DNA of 64,000 nucleotides, from positions 121,086-185,085 of the forward strand of contig JANVYQ010000004.1 of the NCBI GenBank assembly GCA_030059675.1, in the 5' to 3' direction. The notes under the pieces were generated by a model. That model ran no database searches and had not been told where the DNA came from. It saw only the letters and a list, made by a program, of their open reading frames with translations. The position numbers and the translations under genes were made by a program. This document shows, one piece after another, positions 2,115 to 9,918 of the stretch (positions within the stretch are counted from its first letter, which is position 1; each line of letters starts with the position of its first letter). Source of the stretch: Candidatus Pelearchaeum maunauluense. Its GTDB lineage: Archaea; Thermoproteota; Nitrososphaeria_A; Caldarchaeales; Caldarchaeaceae.

Positions 2115-2915
2115 TTGAGCGGGGGCTGGAAAAATATCTGGACGCTGTTCAGCAGGCCTGGGGAGCGCATAGAGGTAGTAGAAACAGGCTACGACATGGT
2201 AGATGACCGCGAGGAGTTCAGACTTAGGATAGAGAAATCCCTATCCCAGCTCAGAGGGCAGATTGAGCGGCTCAACAACAAGTACAGAGAACTGGCCGCG
2301 AGGAACAAGCTATATTTCGAGAAATGTATCGAGGCACTGGTAGCTAGGGACGAGGAGAGGGCTAAGATATACGCCTCCGAGATAGCTGAGATTAAGAAGC
2401 TGGCCAAGATAATAATACATAGCCAGCTTGTCCTGCTCCAGATAAGGATTAGGCTGGAGAGCATCCTAGAGCTAGGGGAGGTTCTCGTCCTAGTAAGGCC
2501 GCTCATAACCCTGCTGGAGAATGTGCGCACAGAGATAGCTGATGTAGTCCCAGAAGCTTCGGAAAACCTCCGCTCACTCGCCAACACGATAGAGAACTTC
2601 ATAACCGAGTCCGAGACGTATGTCGAGCCACCGCCCAGCCAGGCTCTTGAAGAACTCTCAGACGAAGCTAACTTCATCCTAAACGAGGCCAGGAGGATAG
2701 CCGCTGAGAAGGTGAAAGAACACTTCCCAGATATACCAACGCTCACAGAGGAGGAGAAGGCAGTATATTCCTACGTGATGTCCAACCAAAATGAGGAGCT
2801 GGACCTGGACGAGTGCGCATCGCAGCTGGGGATAAGACCCGAAAACCTACAGGAGATATTGAGGAGATTGCAGGAGAAGGGACTGATAGAGATACAGATA
2901 GGGGAGGTTAGCTAG
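2115..2915 (+). CDS. cdvB: CdvB / ESCRT-III (Snf7-like) with C-terminal winged helix
   Basis: Snf7 core (LFEKC-like YFEKCIEAL, RAKIYASEIAEIKK, QIRIRLES); MIM2-like FPDIP; C-terminal wHTH (LDECASQLGI...LRRLQEKGLI). Confidence 0.9.
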   Translation: MSGGWKNIWTLFSRPGERIEVVETGYDMVDDREEFRLRIEKSLSQLRGQIERLNNKYRELAARNKLYFEKCIEALVARDEERAKIYASEIAEIKKLAKIIIHSQLVLLQIRIRLESILELGEVLVLVRPLITLLENVRTEIADVVPEASENLRSLANTIENFITESETYVEPPPSQALEELSDEANFILNEARRIAAEKVKEHFPDIPTLTEEEKAVYSYVMSNQNEELDLDECASQLGIRPENLQEILRRLQEKGLIEIQIGEVS

Positions 2916-4023
2916 TCCCATACTTCTCCTGCCATTTCAACAGCTTCTGCATATTCTCCAGAGCTATTGATGGTCGTCTCTTCTTCAGAACTTCCAGAAA
3001 ATCATCCATGGTTATTGGTCTTGGGTTTCCGTCGCCGCTTCCAGAGGAGAAGAGCTCATTAACCACACGAAGCTGTGCCTCCATGCATACGTCATGTATA
3101 TCTGCCGCAGAATAGCCATCAGACATAACAGCGAGCTGATGTAAATCAACGCCAACATCAAGCTTCAAGCCACTCGTATACATGGTGAACAACTGCTTAC
3201 GCGCCTCCAAGTCTGGTAAGGGAACGTAGATGCGCTTCTGGAATCTCCTGATGAATGGCTCGTCCAGATACCAGGGCTTATTCGTTGCTGCTATGACGTA
3301 GATATACTCCTTCTTGCCCTTGCTCAGTATTCCATCCATCTCCTTTACGAGCTGGTTTCTTACCCTAGCTTCTCCCCCAACTTCCAGGAACCTCTCCGCC
3401 GTGAGCGAGTCAACCTCGTCTATGAAGATTATCGCTGGCTTTCCCTTGCTGGCCACCTGCCTGGCCTGGCTGAAGAGGCGTGCCACGTTTCTCTCAGACT
3501 CTCCGAGCCACTTGGACATTATCGTAGCAGCGTCAACGACGAAGTAATGCGCGTCAATCTCCTTTGCTACGGCAGCCGCGAGGAGCGTCTTACCGCATCC
3601 AGGGGGGCCGAATACCAGAATCCCACGCGGCCAACCAAGCGGAAAGAGGTCTGGCCTCCTAACAGGAAACACTATGCTCTGCCTAATCGCCTTCTTAGCC
3701 TCCTCAATATTCACTATGTCGTCCCACGATACCTGCGGCTTATGACGTAGTATAGTGTCGTTGAATGTTACTTTCTGCTGCTGTGTTACTGCTAGCTTAT
3801 GCTGCTCAGCTACCCCCAGCTTCTCAATACGCGCCTCATACTGGCTTATCTTCTCGACGAAGACCTTACGCAGCGCCTGGTCTTGAGTTAGGTTATAGAG
3901 CTTCCACAGCAGGTCTATCGCTTCGCGGTATCTCTTTACAGCCTTAGCTGTCTGTCCTATCCTGTCATAATAAACAGCCTCACGGGCCTTGTATGCTGCT
4001 ATCCTCTCCAGCTCGGCGAACAT
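2908..4023 (-). CDS. cdvC: CdvC / Vps4 AAA+ ATPase with N-terminal MIT domain
   Basis: MIT helices (AREAVYYD...YREAIDLL); Walker A GPPGCGKT; pore loop SKWLGESE; Walker B IFIDEVD; RRFQKR; SD AGGAGGTG upstream. Confidence 0.92.
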   Translation of the reverse strand: MFAELERIAAYKAREAVYYDRIGQTAKAVKRYREAIDLLWKLYNLTQDQALRKVFVEKISQYEARIEKLGVAEQHKLAVTQQQKVTFNDTILRHKPQVSWDDIVNIEEAKKAIRQSIVFPVRRPDLFPLGWPRGILVFGPPGCGKTLLAAAVAKEIDAHYFVVDAATIMSKWLGESERNVARLFSQARQVASKGKPAIIFIDEVDSLTAERFLEVGGEARVRNQLVKEMDGILSKGKKEYIYVIAATNKPWYLDEPFIRRFQKRIYVPLPDLEARKQLFTMYTSGLKLDVGVDLHQLAVMSDGYSAADIHDVCMEAQLRVVNELFSSGSGDGNPRPITMDDFLEVLKKRRPSIALENMQKLLKWQEKYGTS

Positions 4024-4722: not shown

Positions 4723-5769
4723 ATGCCGCAGATAAGGGACGCAGCTATTCACGGTTATGGTGGCTATGTGCCGCGTCTCCGCATAAAGGCTACGGAAATT
4801 GCACGTATCTGGGGTAAGGAGAGCGGCGAGGTTCCCATTAAGGAGAAGGCGGTTGCAGCGATTGACGAAGACGCTATAACTATGGCCATAGAGGCATCTC
4901 GCTACGCTATACGTAGGGCGGGGATAGACGCGGCTAGGATTGGCGCCGTGCATGTGGGGACTGAGTCTAAGCCCTATGCCGTGAAGCCCAGTGGGACGAT
5001 AGTAGCGGAGGCGCTGGGAATAGGCTCTAACATAACCTCGGCAGACTACGAGTTCGCCTGCAAGGCTGGCACAGAGGCGATGCAGAGCATAATAGCTATG
5101 GTCTCTGCTAGGCGTATAGAGTATGGCCTCGCCATAGGCTCCGACACGGCTCAGGGGAGGCCTGGGGATGCGCTGGAATACACCGCAGCAAGCGGCGCGG
5201 CCGCTCTGGTCATAGGGAGAGAAACAAGAGACGCCATAGCGAGGTTTGAATACTCGGTAACCTATGTAACTGATACGCCAGACTTCTGGCGTAGAAGCTA
5301 TGAACGATTCCCCATGCATACTTCACGCTTTACGGGAGAGCCAGCATACTTCAAGCATACGATAACCGCGGTTAAGAATCTCCTAGCGGAAAACGGCTAC
5401 AGCATTAATGATTTTGATTATTTCATCTTTCACCAGCCTAACGTCAAGTTTCCACTAACCGCTGCCAAGATTCTCTCCATACCATTAGCGAAGGTTGAGC
5501 CTGGGATAGTTTCCGATGTTGTTGGCAACACCTACGCTGCCTGCTCCATGCTGGGGCTTGTGAAGGTTCTGGACATAGCCAAGCCTGGGCAACGTATATT
5601 GATGACCTCATTCGGCTCAGGCGCGGGGAGCGATTCCTTCGTTATAACTGTCGGGGAGGGAATAGAGGAGAAGAGGGAGAGAGCTCCTCCATTAGCGGCG
5701 TTCTTCAGCAGGAAGAAGACGATAGACTACGGAATGTATCTGAAGATGCGGGATAAGATAAGGGTGTGA
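4723..5769 (+). CDS. hmgS: Hydroxymethylglutaryl-CoA synthase (archaeal type)
   Basis: GTESKPYAVKP, catalytic EFACKAG, FHQPN, GNTY and SFGSGAGSD motifs. Confidence 0.95.
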   Translation: MPQIRDAAIHGYGGYVPRLRIKATEIARIWGKESGEVPIKEKAVAAIDEDAITMAIEASRYAIRRAGIDAARIGAVHVGTESKPYAVKPSGTIVAEALGIGSNITSADYEFACKAGTEAMQSIIAMVSARRIEYGLAIGSDTAQGRPGDALEYTAASGAAALVIGRETRDAIARFEYSVTYVTDTPDFWRRSYERFPMHTSRFTGEPAYFKHTITAVKNLLAENGYSINDFDYFIFHQPNVKFPLTAAKILSIPLAKVEPGIVSDVVGNTYAACSMLGLVKVLDIAKPGQRILMTSFGSGAGSDSFVITVGEGIEEKRERAPPLAAFFSRKKTIDYGMYLKMRDKIRV

Positions 5770-5772
5770 GAG

Positions 5773-6927
5773 TTGAAGAAGGTTCTCATAGCAGGATATG
5801 GCCTTACGAAGGTGGAGGAGCACTGGGATAGGAGCTTGGAGAACTTGATGGCTGAGAGCAGTCTCAAAGCCCTGGAGTATGCTGGCCTCTCGCGTGTTGA
5901 TGCTGTTTATGTGGCTAATGTGTATGGTGAGGTTTTGCAGGAGCAGGCCGTTCTCGGCTCTGTCTTGGCCGAGGAGCTGGGTATGAGCGGTGTGCAGGCT
6001 TACAGGATAGAGGCGGGAGCTGCATCTGGGATAGCTGCTGTGAAGATGGCTGCTAACGCGATACAGTCTGGAGAAGCCAACGTAGTCCTTGTAACTGGTG
6101 TTGAGAAGCTCTCAGACGGTACGGCAGAGGAGCACTTAGCCCTCACCGCGATGGAGGAGCGCGAAGAATACACGGGCCAGATGGGTGTTCATCAAGCTGC
6201 TAGCGCCGCGCTACTATACAGGCTCTACCTAAGTCGGTATGGTGCTAGGCAGGATGGTATAGCCCAGTTCGCCGTCATAAGCCATGAGAACGCCGTTGGT
6301 GTGTCTCACGCGCAATACCCCTTCAAGGTGGGCTTGGATACGGTTATGAAATCACCCTACCTATCGGAGCCTCTTCACAGGCTTGAGGCAACGGCGGTAG
6401 CTGACGGCTCGGCAGCCATAATACTCTGCTCAGAAGACTTCGCAGCAAAGCTTGACCCGCCCAAGGCGAGGTTGGCCGCGTGTAGCCTAGCAACCGACTA
6501 CGTTACACCATTTGACAGGGAAGACCCCCTCCACTTCCAAGCCCTGGCGCGCGCTACTCACAGCGCCCTAGAGATGGCCGGCGTCTCAAGGGAGCAGATA
6601 GGCTTTCTGGAGCTTCACGACTCCTTCTCAATAGTTGCCGCCCTCTCGCTGGAGTCGTCTGGCTTCTTCCCGCGCGGGAAGGCTGGGGAGGCGGCTCTCG
6701 CAGGAAAGCTGAGCCTCAACGGGGAGCTACCCATAAACACCTTCGGCGGCCTCAAGGCGCGCGGCCACCCTGTAGGAGCTACGGCAATCTACCAGCTCGC
6801 TGAAGCTTATCTCCAGCTAACACACCAAGCTGGGAAGAACCAGCTAGACAACGCTAAACACGCCATGGTGCAGTCGCTGGCAGGCTTGGGATGTGCGGCG
6901 GCGGTATGCATTCTTGAGGAGGCGTGA
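5773..6927 (+). CDS. Thiolase-family protein (acetoacetyl-CoA thiolase-like) lacking catalytic cysteines
   Basis: Thiolase fold motifs GVEK, DGSAA, ELHDSF, GGLKARGHPVGAT; EAGAASG in place of EAACASG. Confidence 0.85.
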   Translation: MKKVLIAGYGLTKVEEHWDRSLENLMAESSLKALEYAGLSRVDAVYVANVYGEVLQEQAVLGSVLAEELGMSGVQAYRIEAGAASGIAAVKMAANAIQSGEANVVLVTGVEKLSDGTAEEHLALTAMEEREEYTGQMGVHQAASAALLYRLYLSRYGARQDGIAQFAVISHENAVGVSHAQYPFKVGLDTVMKSPYLSEPLHRLEATAVADGSAAIILCSEDFAAKLDPPKARLAACSLATDYVTPFDREDPLHFQALARATHSALEMAGVSREQIGFLELHDSFSIVAALSLESSGFFPRGKAGEAALAGKLSLNGELPINTFGGLKARGHPVGATAIYQLAEAYLQLTHQAGKNQLDNAKHAMVQSLAGLGCAAAVCILEEA

Positions 6928-6931
6928 TACC

Positions 6932-7348
6932 ATGTTGGAGTTTGGAATCAGGATACCTAGGTATTGGCGCGGCAAGCCTTTTAGATATCGACTTGAAGGA
7001 TTTAGATGCGAGGAATGCGGCGAGTTCCACTTCTCCCCAAGGCTCGTGTGTAGAAAATGCGGTGGAAAGCGACTGCGCCGCGACAAGCTCTCCGAACGCG
7101 GGAGGCTCATATGCTATACCGTCGTAAAGTCGGCTTCACCAAGCTTTGAGGCATACACGCCCTACATAGTGGGGCTAATCCAGACGGAAGACGGAACCAT
7201 GATAGTGGGACAGCTTACAGACTGCGACCCCGAAGAACTACATGAAGGGATGGATGTTGAGGCTACGATAAGAAGGCTGCAAACCGATGGCGAGAGCAGG
7301 CTAATCGCTTATGGTTATAAGTTTAGACCCGCTATACAGCGCCCTTAA
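6932..7348 (+). CDS. DUF35 Zn-ribbon/OB-fold scaffold protein of the thiolase-HMGS complex
   Basis: CEECG...CRKCG ribbon, PYIVGLI, YGYKFRP; follows the thiolase gene. Confidence 0.9.
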   Translation: MLEFGIRIPRYWRGKPFRYRLEGFRCEECGEFHFSPRLVCRKCGGKRLRRDKLSERGRLICYTVVKSASPSFEAYTPYIVGLIQTEDGTMIVGQLTDCDPEELHEGMDVEATIRRLQTDGESRLIAYGYKFRPAIQRP

Positions 7349-8168
7349 TCTTTTTCCACAGGAGTATTATGGCGTATTCGCGTGGTATGTTGTCGCGCTC
7401 CATTAGGCGCTGCACATCCGCGGTTAGCATGGCCTCTGCTCGCGTGCCGTGAGAGAGCACGTACCTCTTCTTCACCTCCTCCAAAATCCTGTCAGCCAAC
7501 TCCCTAGAAGTGGTTACGTCGTTAATCGTACGCGGCAGCTCTGATATCTCGTGAATCTTCTCCTCAAGCTCCTTAATCCTATTCCTAAGCATGCTAAGCT
7601 CCTGCCGAAGCTGGGGAATCCTAGCCTCCAACTCTTCTTTCAGACCAACATCGCCTTTACTAGAAGCAGTCTCATCTAGTTGGAGTGTGTTAAGTTCTAG
7701 GCTTGCCCAGTAGAGGTCTACCTCAACCTTGCTGAAGCGCTCTTCTAGCTGTGCCTTAGCCTGCTCTAGGATTTCTAGGGTTCTCCGCGAGTCATTAACT
7801 ATCTTGGAGCGTAGCTCGTTTAGCCTGGTTAGTATCTCTCTAATGGCGCGTGGGGGGACGGTCTCACGTATGCATAGTTCCTGGAACTTGAAGTCCCGTT
7901 TCCTTACATTCTCTATGTCTGACTTGAGCTTTTCATAGTGATTGATTGCGCTCTCCACCAAAGCCTCTTCTGGCTCTTCCTCCGACGCTACCTCAAGCTG
8001 CGGCTCAGCCTCTTGCTGCTGTTCTTCGCGAGTCTCTACAGCCTCGCTCACAGGCTCTATGACTGGCATATCCTCGCCAGTAGGGGGCTGGCTCTCCTGC
8101 TTCTTAGCCCCCTCTCCAGAGACTCTAACGATAATCTTACGCGGCATCCGCTCCTCACCGTTTGACAA
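7332..8168 (-). CDS. Coiled-coil protein, putative CdvA-like
   Basis: N-terminal KIIVRV, acidic/Gln linker, long heptad region with VRKRxxxFxELxxxExVP; start TTG 8168 or ATG 8147 (SD GGTGAGGAG). Confidence 0.6.
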   Translation of the reverse strand: MSNGEERMPRKIIVRVSGEGAKKQESQPPTGEDMPVIEPVSEAVETREEQQQEAEPQLEVASEEEPEEALVESAINHYEKLKSDIENVRKRDFKFQELCIRETVPPRAIREILTRLNELRSKIVNDSRRTLEILEQAKAQLEERFSKVEVDLYWASLELNTLQLDETASSKGDVGLKEELEARIPQLRQELSMLRNRIKELEEKIHEISELPRTINDVTTSRELADRILEEVKKRYVLSHGTRAEAMLTADVQRLMERDNIPREYAIILLWKKIKGAV

Positions 8169-8172
8169 GCTA

Positions 8173-8886
8173 TTACTCCTCCCGCATCTTCGGATACTTC
8201 AGCAGCTTTTTAGCTCTTTCAAAGAGGCTTGTACCAGATATACGGGGAGCTGATTCCAAGACATTCACGGTATTACCTTCATCACCAACCTCCTCAGGTC
8301 TAGCTGGCCTCTGGAGACCGAGCTTGGAGAGTATGCGCTTCTTCTCAGGGCTTGAATCCACATCAACCATGTGTCGTATGTTAAGCGTGTTGAGGCCATA
8401 TATTGTGCTCTCCAGAAGCTTACCGCGCTGAATCCCTATAGAAACCCTAACCGAAACCACCCTACCATCCTTGTTAATCCTGAACACCTTAAACTTGAGG
8501 CTTGATATTTTATGCGTCTTCCCATACTCCACAGGGTCTATAACCAGAGCAACAGCCTTGGGGAACATTAGCTGGTATCTCTTCTGCGTATCTATGTCTG
8601 TTGTTGAGAGAAACACGTCAAAGCCTGGGTGTGAGTGGTACCAGCCGACTATGTAAAGCCCTGAGTTTGTCTGGTGGAGCCACTCCGCCACCTCAGCCAT
8701 AACCGCCTCATCTAGATGGACGAAGACTGGAGTACCATGCTGCTCCCCTGTTACCGCGTCCCATATCTCAAGGACCTGGCTCTGCGCTCTCCCGACGAGG
8801 AGGCCTGCGACCTCCCTGTTAAGATTCGTGAGTGAGTGCTTAACTATCTTACCCAGAGCCAGCGGATATATGCGAGCTATCATCAC
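8173..8886 (-). CDS. JAB1/MPN/Mov34 (JAMM) metalloprotease, Rpn11-like
   Basis: Intact JAMM motif: EVAGLL...GWYHSHPGFDVFLSTTD; AVALVIDP. Confidence 0.92.
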   Translation of the reverse strand: MMIARIYPLALGKIVKHSLTNLNREVAGLLVGRAQSQVLEIWDAVTGEQHGTPVFVHLDEAVMAEVAEWLHQTNSGLYIVGWYHSHPGFDVFLSTTDIDTQKRYQLMFPKAVALVIDPVEYGKTHKISSLKFKVFRINKDGRVVSVRVSIGIQRGKLLESTIYGLNTLNIRHMVDVDSSPEKKRILSKLGLQRPARPEEVGDEGNTVNVLESAPRISGTSLFERAKKLLKYPKMREE

Positions 8887-8994: not shown

Positions 8995-9918
8995 TCAGCC
9001 CATACCGCGTGTCTTAGCCTCATCAAGTATTCGCACAGCATCTACCGGGACGGATATGGGTAGCGGGAAAGCTGCTTCACTAAGCTCAAGCGTAATCTCG
9101 CGTTTAGGCTTATCTATACGTATAACCTTACCGACCATACCCCTCAACGGCCCAGAGACAATCTCAACAACCTGGCCAGTGGTTATGATGTCTATCAGCG
9201 GCTTCTCAACCAAGTGCGCGGCTATCTCGTCAAACGTGACCGTTATGAGCGGCCTATTCTTAATATGCCTAATGCCCTGCGAGACGGCTGCGACAGCCTC
9301 CTTATTCTTGGCCTCTATTAAGACATAGCCCCGAACAGTGGGTAGAATCAATATTGATGCAACATCTATCTTCTCCCTAATCCTAAACAGGAAGTCAAAG
9401 CTCTGCTCAATCCATCCATCATCTTTCCCACCTGTGAACGCCTTTCCTTCGGCGTATGTTTTGCTGGCGGTCTTATACCACAGATAGCTTCCAGACGCGC
9501 AGTCGGGGGCTGAGAGAACCAGGGCATAGGAGACGCCTCTCCTAACATCTATCATCGGCTCTATATTGACCTCATACCAGCCAGGCTCGGAAAGGAGGAG
9601 CGGGTCATACTTAACGCCCGATATCTTGTTTTCTAGGCTCACCCCATACTCTCCCACTCGGTAGAAATCCGCGTGGAGAGGTGCTGTAAGCTCACCCTCA
9701 CGCCCTAGATACAGGTAGAGCTTGGATATCGTCGTAGTCTTGGGTGCTGTGAATGTCTGGTAAGCCCTGCTCTCCGCGTTGATGCGCCAGGCCTCAAAAG
9801 GCTCGCCAGTCGTCTCAACGAGCACCTCAGTCAAACGCGCCTCAATAATACGCGCTACATTACGCTCCTGCCCAACCGTCGTCTTAACCGCGAAGTACCT
9901 ATACCCAGCAGAAGACAT
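8995..9918 (-). CDS. spt5: Transcription elongation factor Spt5 (NusG) with large internal insertion
   Basis: NGN (FAVKTTVGQERNVA...RGYVLIEA) and KOW (GQVVEIVSGPLRG) domains; 307 aa versus about 150 aa normally; next to secE. Confidence 0.9.
   Translation of the reverse strand: MSSAGYRYFAVKTTVGQERNVARIIEARLTEVLVETTGEPFEAWRINAESRAYQTFTAPKTTTISKLYLYLGREGELTAPLHADFYRVGEYGVSLENKISGVKYDPLLLSEPGWYEVNIEPMIDVRRGVSYALVLSAPDCASGSYLWYKTASKTYAEGKAFTGGKDDGWIEQSFDFLFRIREKIDVASILILPTVRGYVLIEAKNKEAVAAVSQGIRHIKNRPLITVTFDEIAAHLVEKPLIDIITTGQVVEIVSGPLRGMVGKVIRIDKPKREITLELSEAAFPLPISVPVDAVRILDEAKTRGMG

What the first reader, a model, noticed from the sequence alone, without database searches (positions are those of the whole stretch)
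7332..8168. Cryptic, rearranged CdvA-like protein
Seen: extreme N-terminal (M)PRKIIVRV strand, a ~55-aa Glu/Gln/Pro linker, a long coiled coil starting IENVRKRDFKFQELCIRETVPPRAIREILTRL, and a tail DVQRLMERDNIPREYAIILL resembling the UBA-like end of NAC in this window (DVMLVMAQSGASEEEARKAL). Recalled, not searched: the crenarchaeal CdvA coil begins IRKRxxxLEELxxKxEIP, and CdvA runs PRC barrel, coil, low-complexity linker, C-terminal IxVxV strand that binds the CdvB wH. Here the strand and linker come before the coil and the PRC barrel is missing. Ca. Caldarchaeum was reported to have CdvB/C without CdvA. Inference: this is the missing CdvA equivalent, possibly ubiquitin-binding.
Basis: partly seen in the sequence, partly recalled or inferred. 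Interest (0 to 1): 0.85.

Follow-up and report, generated by a model that had tools for sequence, protein, structure and literature searches.

The report
Tethered-strand coiled-coil partner of archaeal Rpn11
A protein found only in Caldarchaeales archaea carries a conserved short strand on a floppy acidic tether ahead of a helical body that loosely resembles the cell-division protein CdvA, and its gene usually follows a deubiquitinase gene, so it may link ubiquitin signalling to the ESCRT membrane-cutting machinery.

Summary
The ORF is real, and its likely start is the ATG at 8147 (271 aa). It was found in 41 of 41 Caldarchaeales genomes searched. Only 16 clusters match it among 1.84 billion protein representatives. 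The N-terminal motif MP[KR][KR][IV][IV][IVL][KR] is present in 52 of 54 distinct members. It is followed by a variable acidic, disordered linker and a confidently folded helical body.

The CdvA reading is only partly supported. Pfam CdvA gives no hit. Profile-profile probability against CdvA is 48%, against at most 21% for unrelated helical pairs. The solved CdvA filament is the top structural match of 48,161 chains (Z 11.6), but Z below about 13 can be generic for helical proteins. The UBA-like tail is not supported.

A different protein elsewhere in the genome, with a Zn ribbon, a linker and a coil, is the clear sequence relative of CdvA (96.6%).

The gene sits directly downstream of the orthologue of the characterised CsRpn11 deubiquitinase in 38 of 41 genomes. 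Ancestrally it lay between the Ub-E2-E1-RING operon and Vps4-CdvB.

Best reading (0.38): a CdvA-like adaptor whose tethered strand docks on the broken winged helix of CdvB. Binding is untested.

The parts
7332..8147 (-). Coding sequence of the target protein (271 aa from the ATG at 8147; stop at 7332-7334). The TTG at 8168 proposed by the ORF list is probably not the start.
   Evidence: Shine-Dalgarno sequence before the ATG; orthologues start MPKK/MPRK
8151..8159 (-). Shine-Dalgarno-like GGTGAGGAG, 3 nt upstream of the ATG, inside the 25-nt gap after the JAB stop codon
   Evidence: read directly from the sequence
8121..8147 (-). N-terminal short linear motif MPRKIIVRV (family consensus MP[KR][KR][IV][IV][IVL][KR]); proposed beta-augmentation strand
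   Evidence: conserved in 20/20, 12/14 and 52/54 members; top-residue frequency 0.67 against 0.30 in the linker; pLDDT about 45, so not docked on the body
7977..8120 (-). Acidic, Pro/Gln-rich disordered linker (residues 10-57). It holds a second, less conserved motif PVIEPV (residues 28-33)
   Evidence: pLDDT < 50 for residues 7-57; variable in length and sequence; P[VITLA][IVL][EDQ]P in 22 of 54 members
7533..7976 (-). Three long helices (60-94, 99-158, 165-202) forming the CdvA-like three-helix coiled-coil region
   Evidence: AF2 blockwise pLDDT mostly > 90, with a dip to 74-86 around residues 151-170; top structural hit 9s9g_A CdvA, Z 11.6, rmsd 3.3, 130 residues, model 65-205 against chain 68-197; hhalign 48.1% over 126 columns against CdvA 74-199
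7335..7532 (-). C-terminal helices (204-212, 216-252, 256-270), absent from CdvA. They include the near-invariant IPREYAIILLWK (residues 254-265, nt 7353-7388)
   Evidence: top-residue frequency 0.65 for residues 251-271; no UBA similarity
8173..8886 (-). Upstream gene on the same strand: Rpn11-like JAMM/MPN+ deubiquitinase, orthologue of CsRpn11, with a conserved amphipathic C-terminal tail
   Evidence: Pfam JAB 2.1e-19; PDB 6fju 5.1e-78; adjacent to the target in 20/20 loci and 38/41 genomes; tail alignment
2115..2915 (+). CdvB (ESCRT-III) with the MIM2-like FPDIP and a C-terminal winged helix ending ...KGLIEIQIGEVS; the proposed docking target
   Evidence: PDB CdvB2 2.3e-25; winged-helix region best PDB hit 2xvc_A, E 0.15; Pfam TrmB wH 210-262; alignment
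2908..4023 (-). Vps4/CdvC (MIT + AAA + Vps4_C)

Best explanation
The gene encodes a protein specific to Caldarchaeales (Aigarchaeota) and found in every genome of the order that was searched. The protein has four parts:
1. A basic beta-strand-type short motif at the extreme N-terminus.
2. A disordered acidic tether of about 50 residues.
3. A three-helix coiled coil that resembles the coiled-coil domain of CdvA more than any other solved structure.
4. Extra C-terminal helices ending in IPREYAxILLWK.

Proposed mechanism: the protein is a CdvA-like adaptor without a PRC barrel. Its tethered N-terminal strand does what the C-terminal E3B strand of CdvA does in Sulfolobus: it adds the missing strand to the 'broken' winged helix at the C-terminus of CdvB, and so recruits or stabilises that ESCRT-III protein. 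The helical body oligomerises or binds partners. In most lineages the protein is co-expressed with the Rpn11-like deubiquitinase, which probably works with it.

Shown: existence, conservation, architecture, gene context, absence of canonical CdvA, and presence of a winged-helix-bearing CdvB.

Inferred: homology of the coil to CdvA (my estimate about 0.5), docking of the strand on the winged helix (about 0.3), and partnership with Rpn11 (about 0.6).
For: Conservation:
- Found in 41 of 41 genomes of the order.
- Only 16 clusters at E <= 0.001 among 1,835,955,588 representatives. Fourteen of them are 197-274 aa; the other two are a 40-aa fragment and a 622-aa protein at 5e-5.
- All named records are Caldarchaeales/Aigarchaeota, except one 4-kb contig labelled Caldimicrobium.

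Motif:
- Present in 52 of 54 members.
- It sits on a tether with pLDDT < 50, as E3B sits on a flexible linker in CdvA (Drobnic et al. bioRxiv 10.1101/2025.09.15.676241, passages read).
- Its core I-[IV]-[IVL]-[KR]-[IV] matches the core of canonical CdvA tails such as LVVKL, LVVRL, LILRL, LVIKI, IPVKV and INVKV. These are examples taken from the 36 CdvA sequences listed.

Need for a partner:
- PF18822 found in 0 of 76 genomes of the class.
- A CdvB covered through its winged helix was found in 40 of 41 genomes.
- That domain ends right after the GLIE[IV] strand, and its best PDB match is the Sulfolobus broken winged helix 2xvc.

Coil:
- 9s9g_A (S. islandicus CdvA) is rank 1 of 48,161 chains: Z 11.6, rmsd 3.3 A, 130 residues.
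- The Zn-ribbon protein, a demonstrable sequence relative of CdvA, scores only Z 9.3 against the same chain.
- hhalign gives 28.0%, rising to 48.1% over 126 columns with larger alignments, in the same register as the structural match.
- Reversed-sequence controls give 3-8%. Twelve pairs of presumably unrelated helical families give 0.4-21%.

Context:
- Vps4 and CdvB lie within about 5 kb downstream in 14 of 36 loci. These include HR01-like and Wolframiiraptor-like lineages, so at least two families.
- The terminal-strand-plus-acidic-linker architecture is unique among 1754 ORFs of the genome.
- The alternative E3B-like motif in the Zn-ribbon protein is modelled as a packed loop at pLDDT > 90, not a free strand.
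Against: - Pfam CdvA does not hit the protein at E <= 1. NCBIfam gives only coiled-coil noise.
- hhalign probability stays below 50%. An alternative alignment (A1) gave 14.9% in another register.
- Z 11.6 is only 1.0 above the next, unrelated, hit. It is below the roughly 13 that the tool gives as possibly generic for helical proteins.
- Foldseek found nothing at E <= 0.001.
- The motif is short. Its Pro lies at -3 rather than at -1 or -2 as in CdvA tails. In Wolframiiraptor-like members the last position is Asp.
- The linkage to Vps4-CdvB crosses four genes. Three of them form a convergent mevalonate operon that is itself the most persistent neighbour, so the proximity may be inherited gene order only. 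It is absent in Caldarchaeum and in families f2 and f3.
- The tight operon partner is Rpn11, not a cdv gene.
- A clearer CdvA relative exists elsewhere in the genome.
- The genome also has FtsZ, so a CdvA-type ring organiser may not be needed.
Confidence: 0.38

Rival explanations
1. An accessory of the ubiquitin system with no ESCRT role. The protein would be the partner or regulator of the Rpn11-like deubiquitinase. For example, its helical body could bind the dispensable C-terminal helices of Rpn11. Its N-terminal hydrophobic strand with an acidic flank would pair with the beta-sheet of the archaeal ubiquitin, like a SUMO- or Atg8-interacting motif (resemblance recalled), or with the Ins-1 region of Rpn11. 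On this reading the CdvA likeness is just generic coiled coil.
For: - The Rpn11-like gene lies directly upstream on the same strand in 20 of 20 loci and in 38 of 41 genomes (coordinates). The gap in the window is 25 nt with its own Shine-Dalgarno sequence.
- The upstream protein is the orthologue of CsRpn11 (6fju, 5.1e-78), which processes pro-Ub and Ub conjugates (PMC6043591, passages read).
- The Ub-E2-E1-RING operon is divergent from the Rpn11-target pair: Ub in 15 of 36 loci, and E2 plus E1 in 14 of them.
- In the window's genus the Ub operon moved away, but the Rpn11-target pair stayed together.
- The C-terminal helices of CsRpn11 are not needed for catalysis, and residues 174-202 are unresolved, so they are free to bind a partner.
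- Members such as MPKRIIIKDSDLEE look like a hydrophobic core plus acidic flank.
Against: - In 20 of the 36 loci (Wolframiiraptor-like and kin) Rpn11 is not next to the target. The upstream genes were read in 13 loci, 11 of them without Rpn11, and they differ.
- In genus g10 Rpn11 stays beside E2 on other contigs, while the target keeps its N-terminal motif.
- This reading does not explain why CdvA is the top structural hit, or why a CdvA-less lineage keeps a broken winged helix on CdvB.
- E2 (75 of 76 genomes) and Rpn11 (73 of 76) are near-universal in the order, so presence and absence cannot separate the readings.
Confidence: 0.3
2. The functional CdvA of this lineage is the Zn-ribbon coiled-coil protein (G000:C3:108960-109814, outside the window). 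Its NPFN[IL][RK]L segment would complete the CdvB winged helix. The target would then be a more distant paralogue or partner with another task.
For: - hhalign against CdvA gives 94.6% and 96.6% (E 5.9e-10, 98 columns), with reversed controls of 1-2%.
- Pfam CdvA hits 18 of 18 members at E <= 1 (best 8.3e-6); the window genome's own member scores 20.8 bits, below the 30-bit cut-off.
- Found in 76 of 76 genomes of the order.
- Fold hits are the ESCRT-I core (Z 9.7) and CdvA (Z 9.3, rank 5).
- The motif P-F-N-I-R-L has the same spacing as CdvA tails such as PFTVRL and PINVKV.
- The motif is absent from the three out-of-order homologues examined, and those genomes have canonical CdvA.
Against: - Full-length homologues coexist with canonical CdvA in other families of the phylum (f19, f8). 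The family is therefore an extra paralogue rather than a replacement.
- The NPFNIRL segment is internal and is modelled as a packed inter-helix loop (pLDDT blocks 94-96), unlike a tethered E3B.
- The gene is not in the cdv locus. It lies about 12 kb from CdvB in Caldarchaeum genomes, and on another contig in this genome.
Confidence: 0.2
3. A lineage-specific coiled-coil protein unrelated to both the ESCRT and ubiquitin systems, for example a structural or scaffolding protein. Its neighbours would reflect inherited gene order only.
For: - Only generic coiled-coil families appear in Pfam and NCBIfam.
- No significant Foldseek hit.
- The most persistent neighbour is an unrelated mevalonate operon.
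Against: - Same-strand spacing to Rpn11 is tight across four families.
- The two terminal motifs are conserved more strongly than the helical body.
- CdvA ranks first among 48,161 chains.
Confidence: 0.1

Closest known systems
CdvA of Sulfolobales and other Thermoproteota (Pfam PF18822; PDB 9s9g)
   Same: - A three-helix coiled-coil region of similar size. CdvA is the best structural match: Z 11.6, 130 residues, rmsd 3.3.
- Weak profile similarity in the same register (48%).
- A short h-h-h-[KR]-h strand motif on a flexible linker at one terminus.
- The organism has CdvB with a winged helix and Vps4.
   Different: - No PRC barrel.
- The strand and linker are N-terminal rather than C-terminal.
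- About 65 extra C-terminal helical residues.
- No Pfam CdvA hit.
- The gene is paired with Rpn11, not with cdvB/cdvC.
- Filament formation, membrane binding and CdvB binding are all untested.
Zn-ribbon plus Glu/Pro-rich linker plus CdvA-like coil proteins. Makarova et al. 2024, bioRxiv 10.1101/2024.02.06.579148, describe arCOG03733 of Thermoproteales and bathyarchaeal CdvA-like proteins fused to a Glu-rich sequence (passages read). The member in this genome is at G000:C3:108960-109814.
   Same: - Overall plan: a small N-terminal element, a disordered acidic linker of about 40-50 residues, three long helices, then more helices.
- Found in every genome of the order searched: 41 of 41 for the target, 76 of 76 for the Zn-ribbon protein.
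- Weak mutual profile similarity: 27.5-42.8% with two alignments, but only 2.6% with alignment A2, which is no better than the reversed controls.
   Different: - The target has a beta-strand motif instead of a Zn ribbon.
- It lacks the [HY]xIGE[IL]xxxxY signatures.
- It has no Pfam CdvA signal, against 18 of 18 members for the Zn-ribbon family.
- I assign this genome's protein to the published arCOGs by resemblance only. The supplements that would settle it are closed.
Recruitment of JAMM deubiquitinases to ESCRT-III in eukaryotes (AMSH/STAMBP with STAM and CHMP proteins). Recalled from general knowledge, not from a call.
   Same: A JAMM deubiquitinase encoded with a helical adaptor near ESCRT-III and Vps4 genes. 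The window's JAB protein matches AMSH-like proteases at about 4e-9 and Rpn11 at about 2e-21.
   Different: - No MIT domain in the Rpn11-like protein or in the target.
- The proposed docking is strand addition to a winged helix, not MIT-MIM binding.
- No interaction has been shown.
CsRpn11 of Ca. Caldiarchaeum subterraneum (PDB 6fju/6fjv; Fuchs et al. 2018, PMC6043591)
   Same: The upstream gene is its orthologue (5.1e-78). In C. subterraneum-like loci the target's orthologue follows it directly.
   Different: In the passages I read, the published work treats Rpn11 alone. The term 'downstream' has 0 occurrences in PMC6043591. The legend of Fig. [quoted passage not shown]

Membership tests
CdvA (PF18822 and canonical architecture) | Match to the Pfam CdvA coiled-coil profile at or above the 30-bit gathering score | tested here: not met
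   No PF18822 match at E <= 1 for the window protein. The whole-genome scan with PF18822 does not hit this ORF; the best hit, 19.2 bits, is a different gene. The family is not among the 25 families matched by most of the 24 members.
CdvA (PF18822 and canonical architecture) | Three-helix coiled-coil domain homologous to that of CdvA | tested here: inconclusive
   Structure: 9s9g_A ranks 1 of 48,161 chains, Z 11.6, rmsd 3.3, 130 residues. The next hit has Z 10.6, and Z below about 13 may be generic for helical proteins. Sequence: hhalign 28.0-48.1% (one alignment gave 14.9%), against reversed controls of 3-8% and unrelated pairs of at most 21%.
CdvA (PF18822 and canonical architecture) | N-terminal PRC barrel | tested here: not met
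   Residues 1-57 are a 9-residue motif plus a disordered linker, with no strands in the model. PF05239 gave no match in the genome at E <= 0.01. This search is weak, because the control did not ring in Sulfolobus either.
CdvA (PF18822 and canonical architecture) | C-terminal E3B strand after a flexible linker | tested here: not met
   The C-terminus is helical (IPREYAIILLWK). A similar strand-plus-linker module sits at the N-terminus instead, so the feature is present only in inverted order.
CdvA (PF18822 and canonical architecture) | Binds the broken winged helix of CdvB | not testable with these tools
   Needs peptide binding or a structure; see Tried and rejected for the one computational attempt. 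The winged helix itself is present, and its best PDB match is 2xvc.
CdvA (PF18822 and canonical architecture) | Gene in or beside the cdvB/cdvC locus | tested here: inconclusive
   Vps4 and CdvB lie within about 5 kb in 14 of 36 loci, always behind four intervening genes. In the 41 near relatives, only 3 have CdvB within 6 kb (coordinates).
CdvA (PF18822 and canonical architecture) | Forms filaments and binds membrane | not testable with these tools
   No computation here addresses it.
   No UBA family is listed among the matches at E <= 1, whereas the window's NAC does hit UBA_HYPK at 1.1e-5. BLASTP of the tail against NAC gives E 2.6-3.3. The model shows one 37-residue helix plus one 15-residue helix.
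Partner of the Rpn11-like deubiquitinase (operational grouping, not a curated family) | Conserved same-strand adjacency to the CsRpn11 orthologue | tested here: met
   20 of 20 loci and 38 of 41 genomes, but only 16 of 36 loci in the species-wide pattern scan.
Partner of the Rpn11-like deubiquitinase (operational grouping, not a curated family) | Physical interaction with Rpn11 or Ub | not tested

The most novel reading that the evidence does not exclude
Caldarchaeales would couple a eukaryote-like ubiquitin system to ESCRT-III through this protein. It would be a CdvA-derived adaptor in which the PRC barrel is lost and the ESCRT-III-binding strand has moved to the N-terminus. It would hold the membrane-associated Rpn11-like deubiquitinase on the winged helix of CdvB. 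Ubiquitylation and deubiquitylation would then control CdvB stability or cargo handling. This would be a ubiquitin-ESCRT link outside Asgard archaea and eukaryotes.
Probability: 0.18. Interest if true: 0.85.

Novelty: new variant of a known kind. Interest (0 to 1): 0.6.

Why it matters
Aigarchaeota/Caldarchaeales are the textbook case of archaea with CdvB and CdvC but 'no CdvA' (PMC3082918, PMC6053391). They also have the best-studied archaeal E1/E2/RING/Rpn11 ubiquitin system outside Asgard.

This work shows two things about the lineage. First, it does hold CdvA-like coiled-coil proteins without a PRC barrel. Second, one of them carries a conserved tethered strand and is encoded with Rpn11, between the ubiquitin operon and Vps4-CdvB.

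That gives a concrete candidate, testable with peptides, for what completes the broken winged helix of CdvB. In Sulfolobus that domain controls proteasomal turnover of CdvB (PMC12909875). It also gives a candidate for a pre-Asgard link between ubiquitin and ESCRT.

If the strand binds Ub or Rpn11 instead, the protein would be the first candidate partner of CsRpn11 that I know of. The Rpn11 passages I read treat the enzyme alone, and my literature searches turned up no description of this gene.

Tried and rejected
**Complex prediction.** I co-folded the CdvB winged helix (residues 200-266, 22-row alignment A4) with the target N-terminus (residues 1-40, 24-row alignment A5). Scores were 0.16 and 0.16 against a mark of 0.32. 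The verdict was 'no answer', the controls were not run, and the partner's own fold was uncertain. This is neither for nor against binding. It used the only job, so Rpn11, Ub and the Zn-ribbon peptide could not be tried.

**Foldseek against PDB.** Nothing at E <= 0.001, only generic helical bundles (AhlC, ClyA, STAT coiled coils).

**PDB sequence search with profile A1.** Only coiled-coil noise (best E 0.0019, a DH-domain protein). CdvA was not listed.

**ESM Atlas, residues 58-271.** No usable hit.

**NCBIfam.** Noise only.

**PRC barrel search in the genome.** No hit, but the control did not ring in Sulfolobus, so the search is uninformative.

**Promoter/terminator scan.** Counts were near the shuffled expectation. 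It also models bacterial signals, so I did not use it.

**MIM2 reading of the linker motif PVIEPV.** Rejected. By the consensus as I recall it, MIM2 has one residue between its two prolines (PxΦP), as in CdvB's own FP[DE][IVA]P, whereas PVIEPV has three.

**CUE/UBA readings of IPREYAxILLWK.** Rejected.

**Natural fusions of the target to a PRC barrel, JAB or Zn ribbon.** None appeared among the 16 clusters, a search that has no length limit.

**Covariation between strand variants and the last strand of the winged helix.** Considered, but there are too few independent lineages.

I therefore made no call to the search for homologous proteins, which uses the same collection, and I have no database names for the family.
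- Supplementary tables of Makarova et al. 2024 may already list arCOGs for these Caldarchaeales proteins. Supplements are closed, so I could not check.

**Novelty searches.** The statement that the gene is undescribed rests on searches, and on passages read.


Full report
**The object.** Window 7332-8168 (-) is an open frame of 278 codons from a TTG. The likely start is the ATG at 8147. It lies 3 nt after GGTGAGGAG and 25 nt after the stop of the upstream gene, and orthologues begin MPKK/MPRK. The 271-aa product starts MPRKIIVRV.

**Conservation and range.**
- The protein was found in 41 of 41 genomes of its order (4 families, 10 genera; E from 1e-13 to 1e-172).
- In this taxonomy the class holds only that order (76 genomes).
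- A profile search of 1.84 billion cluster representatives returned only 16 proteins at E <= 0.001. Fourteen are 197-274 aa; the other two are a 40-aa fragment and a 622-aa protein at 5e-5. There are therefore no fused or longer forms.
- Named records carrying it are Ca. Pelearchaeum (89% identical), archaeon HR01, Ca. Caldarchaeum, Ca. Wolframiiraptor, Ca. Benthortus and 'Aigarchaeota'. The one exception is a 4-kb contig labelled Caldimicrobium.

**Anatomy.**
- The alignments show a near-invariant N-terminal motif MP[KR][KR][IV][IV][IVL][KR], present in 52 of 54 distinct sequences.
- A linker of about 40-60 residues follows. It is rich in Glu, Pro and Gln and varies in length and sequence. 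In 22 of 54 members it holds a second motif, P[VI][IV]EP[VI].
- Then comes a conserved helical body ending in IPREYAxILLWK.
- Top-residue frequency is 0.67 for residues 1-9, 0.30 for the linker, 0.46-0.55 for the helices up to residue 250, and 0.65 for residues 251-271.
- AlphaFold2 (mean pLDDT 81.6, pTM 0.67) leaves residues 7-57 below pLDDT 50. It places helices at 60-94, 99-158, 165-202, 204-212, 216-252 and 256-270, with blockwise pLDDT mostly above 90.

**Is it CdvA-like?**
- Pfam and NCBIfam list only sub-threshold coiled-coil families and no CdvA.
- The order lacks canonical CdvA: PF18822 found 0 of 76 genomes at E <= 1e-5, against 38 of 61 sampled genomes of the phylum over the cut-off. 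This agrees with Nunoura et al. 2010 and Hua et al. 2018 (passages).
- I built a CdvA alignment from phylum genomes. Profile-profile comparison with the target gave 28.0% over 77 columns. With 54 target sequences against 36 CdvA sequences it gave 48.1% over 126 columns (target 81-218 against CdvA 74-199).
- Reversed controls gave 3-8%. A smaller alignment gave 14.9% in another register.
- Foldseek found nothing significant.
- The Foldseek-independent scan of 48,161 chains put the S. islandicus CdvA filament 9s9g_A first: Z 11.6, rmsd 3.3 A, 130 residues, model 65-205 against chain 68-197. The next hit has Z 10.6. [quoted passage not shown] (passages), and it agrees with the hhalign register.
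- The tool warns that Z below about 13 can be generic for helical proteins.
- I rate homology of the coil at about even odds.

**A stronger CdvA relative elsewhere.**
- The best PF18822 hit in the genome (19.2 bits) is a different gene, G000:C3:108960-109814. It has a Zn ribbon, an acidic linker and a coil with [HY]xIGE[IL]xxxxY signatures.
- It is present in 76 of 76 genomes of the order.
- It matches CdvA at 94.6-96.6% by hhalign.
- It hits Pfam CdvA at E <= 1 in 18 of 18 members; the window genome's own member scores 20.8 bits, below the 30-bit cut-off.
- Its model has the same overall plan as the target. Its best fold hits are the ESCRT-I core (Z 9.7) and CdvA (Z 9.3, rank 5). A proven sequence relative of CdvA therefore scores lower against the CdvA structure than the target does.
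- Full-length homologues also occur in other families of the phylum that do have canonical CdvA. The family is thus an additional paralogue. By resemblance only, it is probably the kind Makarova et al. 2024 describe (passages).
- Its Caldarchaeales members carry NPFN[IL][RK]L, spaced like CdvA tails. That segment is internal and is modelled as a packed loop at pLDDT > 90.

**The strand and the winged helix.**
- Canonical CdvA tails from 36 sequences include IPVKV, LVVKL, LVVRL, LILRL, LVIKI, INVKV and FTVRL. Thaumarchaeal CdvAs end differently, in DDWLARMEAQ.
- The target's core I-[IV]-[IVL]-[KR]-[IV] fits this pattern, and like E3B it sits on a flexible tether.
- Each genome has three CdvB paralogues. 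One has a C-terminal winged helix; in 40 of 41 genomes the match runs through it.
- The domain ends a few residues after the GLIE[IV] strand. Its best PDB sequence match is the Sulfolobus broken winged helix 2xvc (E 0.15, aligned end to end).
- In Sulfolobus this domain binds E3B and controls CdvB turnover (PMC12909875, passages).
- Among 1754 crude ORFs of the genome, only the target combines a terminal strand motif with an acidic 40-residue flank (the pattern was chosen post hoc).

**Gene context.**
- The upstream gene on the same strand is a JAMM/MPN+ protein (Pfam JAB 2.1e-19). It is the orthologue of the characterised CsRpn11 (6fju, 5.1e-78).
- It precedes the target in 20 of 20 loci and in 38 of 41 genomes by coordinates.
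- In the species-wide pattern scan it precedes the target in only 16 of 36 loci. I read the upstream genes in 13 loci, 11 of them among the 20 without Rpn11, and found various other genes there. In genus g10 the Rpn11 gene stays beside E2 on other contigs.
- Larger loci reveal a recurrent block: cc220 | cc107-RING-E1-E2-Ub (minus strand) | Rpn11-target (plus strand) | DUF35-thiolase-HMG-CoA synthase (minus strand) | Lrp-Vps4 (plus strand) | CdvB (minus strand).
- Ub lies divergent from Rpn11 in 15 of 36 loci. Vps4 and CdvB lie within about 5 kb of the target in 14 of 36.
- Different lineages broke the block at different points. In the window's genus the Ub operon moved to another contig, but Rpn11-target and Vps4-CdvB stayed.
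- The most persistent neighbour is the unrelated mevalonate operon, so some of this order may be inheritance rather than function.
- E2 (75 of 76 genomes) and Rpn11 (73 of 76) are near-universal in the order, so presence and absence cannot discriminate.

**The Rpn11-like protein.**
- Its C-terminus ends in a conserved amphipathic tail, [SG]LL[GE]KAKKLF[GS], in 18 of 20 loci. It resembles the MinD membrane-targeting helix (resemblance recalled).
- In family f3 the tail is replaced by a hydrophobic stretch of more than 20 residues. This suggests membrane association.
- Fuchs et al. report that the C-terminal helices are dispensable for catalysis and that residues 174-202 are unresolved.

**Verdict.**
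- The protein is not a member of the CdvA family by the curated profile or by architecture. It may still be a divergent or convergent CdvA-like adaptor with the strand-linker module at the opposite end.
- The UBA idea fails.
- The best-supported mechanism (0.38) is docking of the tethered strand on the CdvB winged helix, with Rpn11 as a co-expressed partner.
- The main rival (0.30) is a pure ubiquitin/Rpn11 accessory whose strand pairs with Ub or Rpn11.
- No binding has been shown. The one complex prediction gave no verdict and is reported only under Tried and rejected.
- The organism also has FtsZ, so the Cdv proteins here may serve vesicle formation or other membrane remodelling rather than division.

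Noticed in passing
G000:C3:108960-109814 (-), outside the window (L001:1150-2007, L047:1498-2355): A protein with a Zn ribbon, an acidic linker and a coil is the clear CdvA-like relative in this 'CdvA-less' order. hhalign against CdvA gives 96.6%. Pfam CdvA hits 18 of 18 members at E <= 1. It is present in 76 of 76 genomes. Its best fold hits are the ESCRT-I core and CdvA. It carries a Caldarchaeales-specific NPFN[IL][RK]L motif.
   Followed up: yes
window 8173-8886 (-): The Rpn11-like deubiquitinase ends in a conserved amphipathic tail (SLFERAKKLLKY here; GLLGKAKKLFG in Caldarchaeum). In family f3 loci (L025, L026, L114, L115) a hydrophobic transmembrane-like stretch replaces it. This suggests the enzyme is membrane-associated.
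   Followed up: partly
L158:725-3880 (G000 contig C12) and loci L102-L115: The Ub-E2-E1-RING operon is followed by two conserved coiled-coil genes: a 107-aa one on the same strand and a 220-aa one on the opposite strand. Both are found in 13 of the 36 loci, and their function is unknown. The Ub ORF here reads on past the Gly-Gly (VGG-CGGGGLC) and would need processing.
   Followed up: partly
window 8995-9918 (-): The Spt5/NusG homologue is 307 aa. Its NGN domain matches in two stretches (best 181-234) and the KOW domain at 248-272, which implies an insertion of about 150 residues near the start of NGN.
   Followed up: no
window 8049-8066 (-), residues 28-33 of the target: A second short motif, PVIEPV, sits in the acidic linker. 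Its strict form is present in 22 of 54 members across several families, with looser variants such as PEVEALP in Caldarchaeum. It could pair with the basic first strand or be a second docking site.
   Followed up: partly
window 2115-2915 (+), residues 204-208: CdvB carries an invariant F-P-x-x-P (FPDIP here) between the ESCRT-III core and the winged helix. It fits the MIM2 pattern (recalled) for binding the Vps4 MIT domain.
   Followed up: no
G000:C16:98882-99361 (+), about 22 kb upstream of the window: FtsZ is present (Pfam Tubulin 157.6 bits) alongside three CdvB paralogues and Vps4.
   Followed up: no
G000:C16:15689-15973 (-) (L160:1366-1791): A second, small JAMM protein (141 aa) is encoded in the genome, distinct from the Rpn11-like one.
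   Followed up: no
window 4723-7348 (+): The HMG-CoA synthase, thiolase and DUF35/OB-fold genes (mevalonate pathway) lie convergent to the target. They are its most persistent neighbours across the order, present in about 32 of 36 loci.
   Followed up: partly
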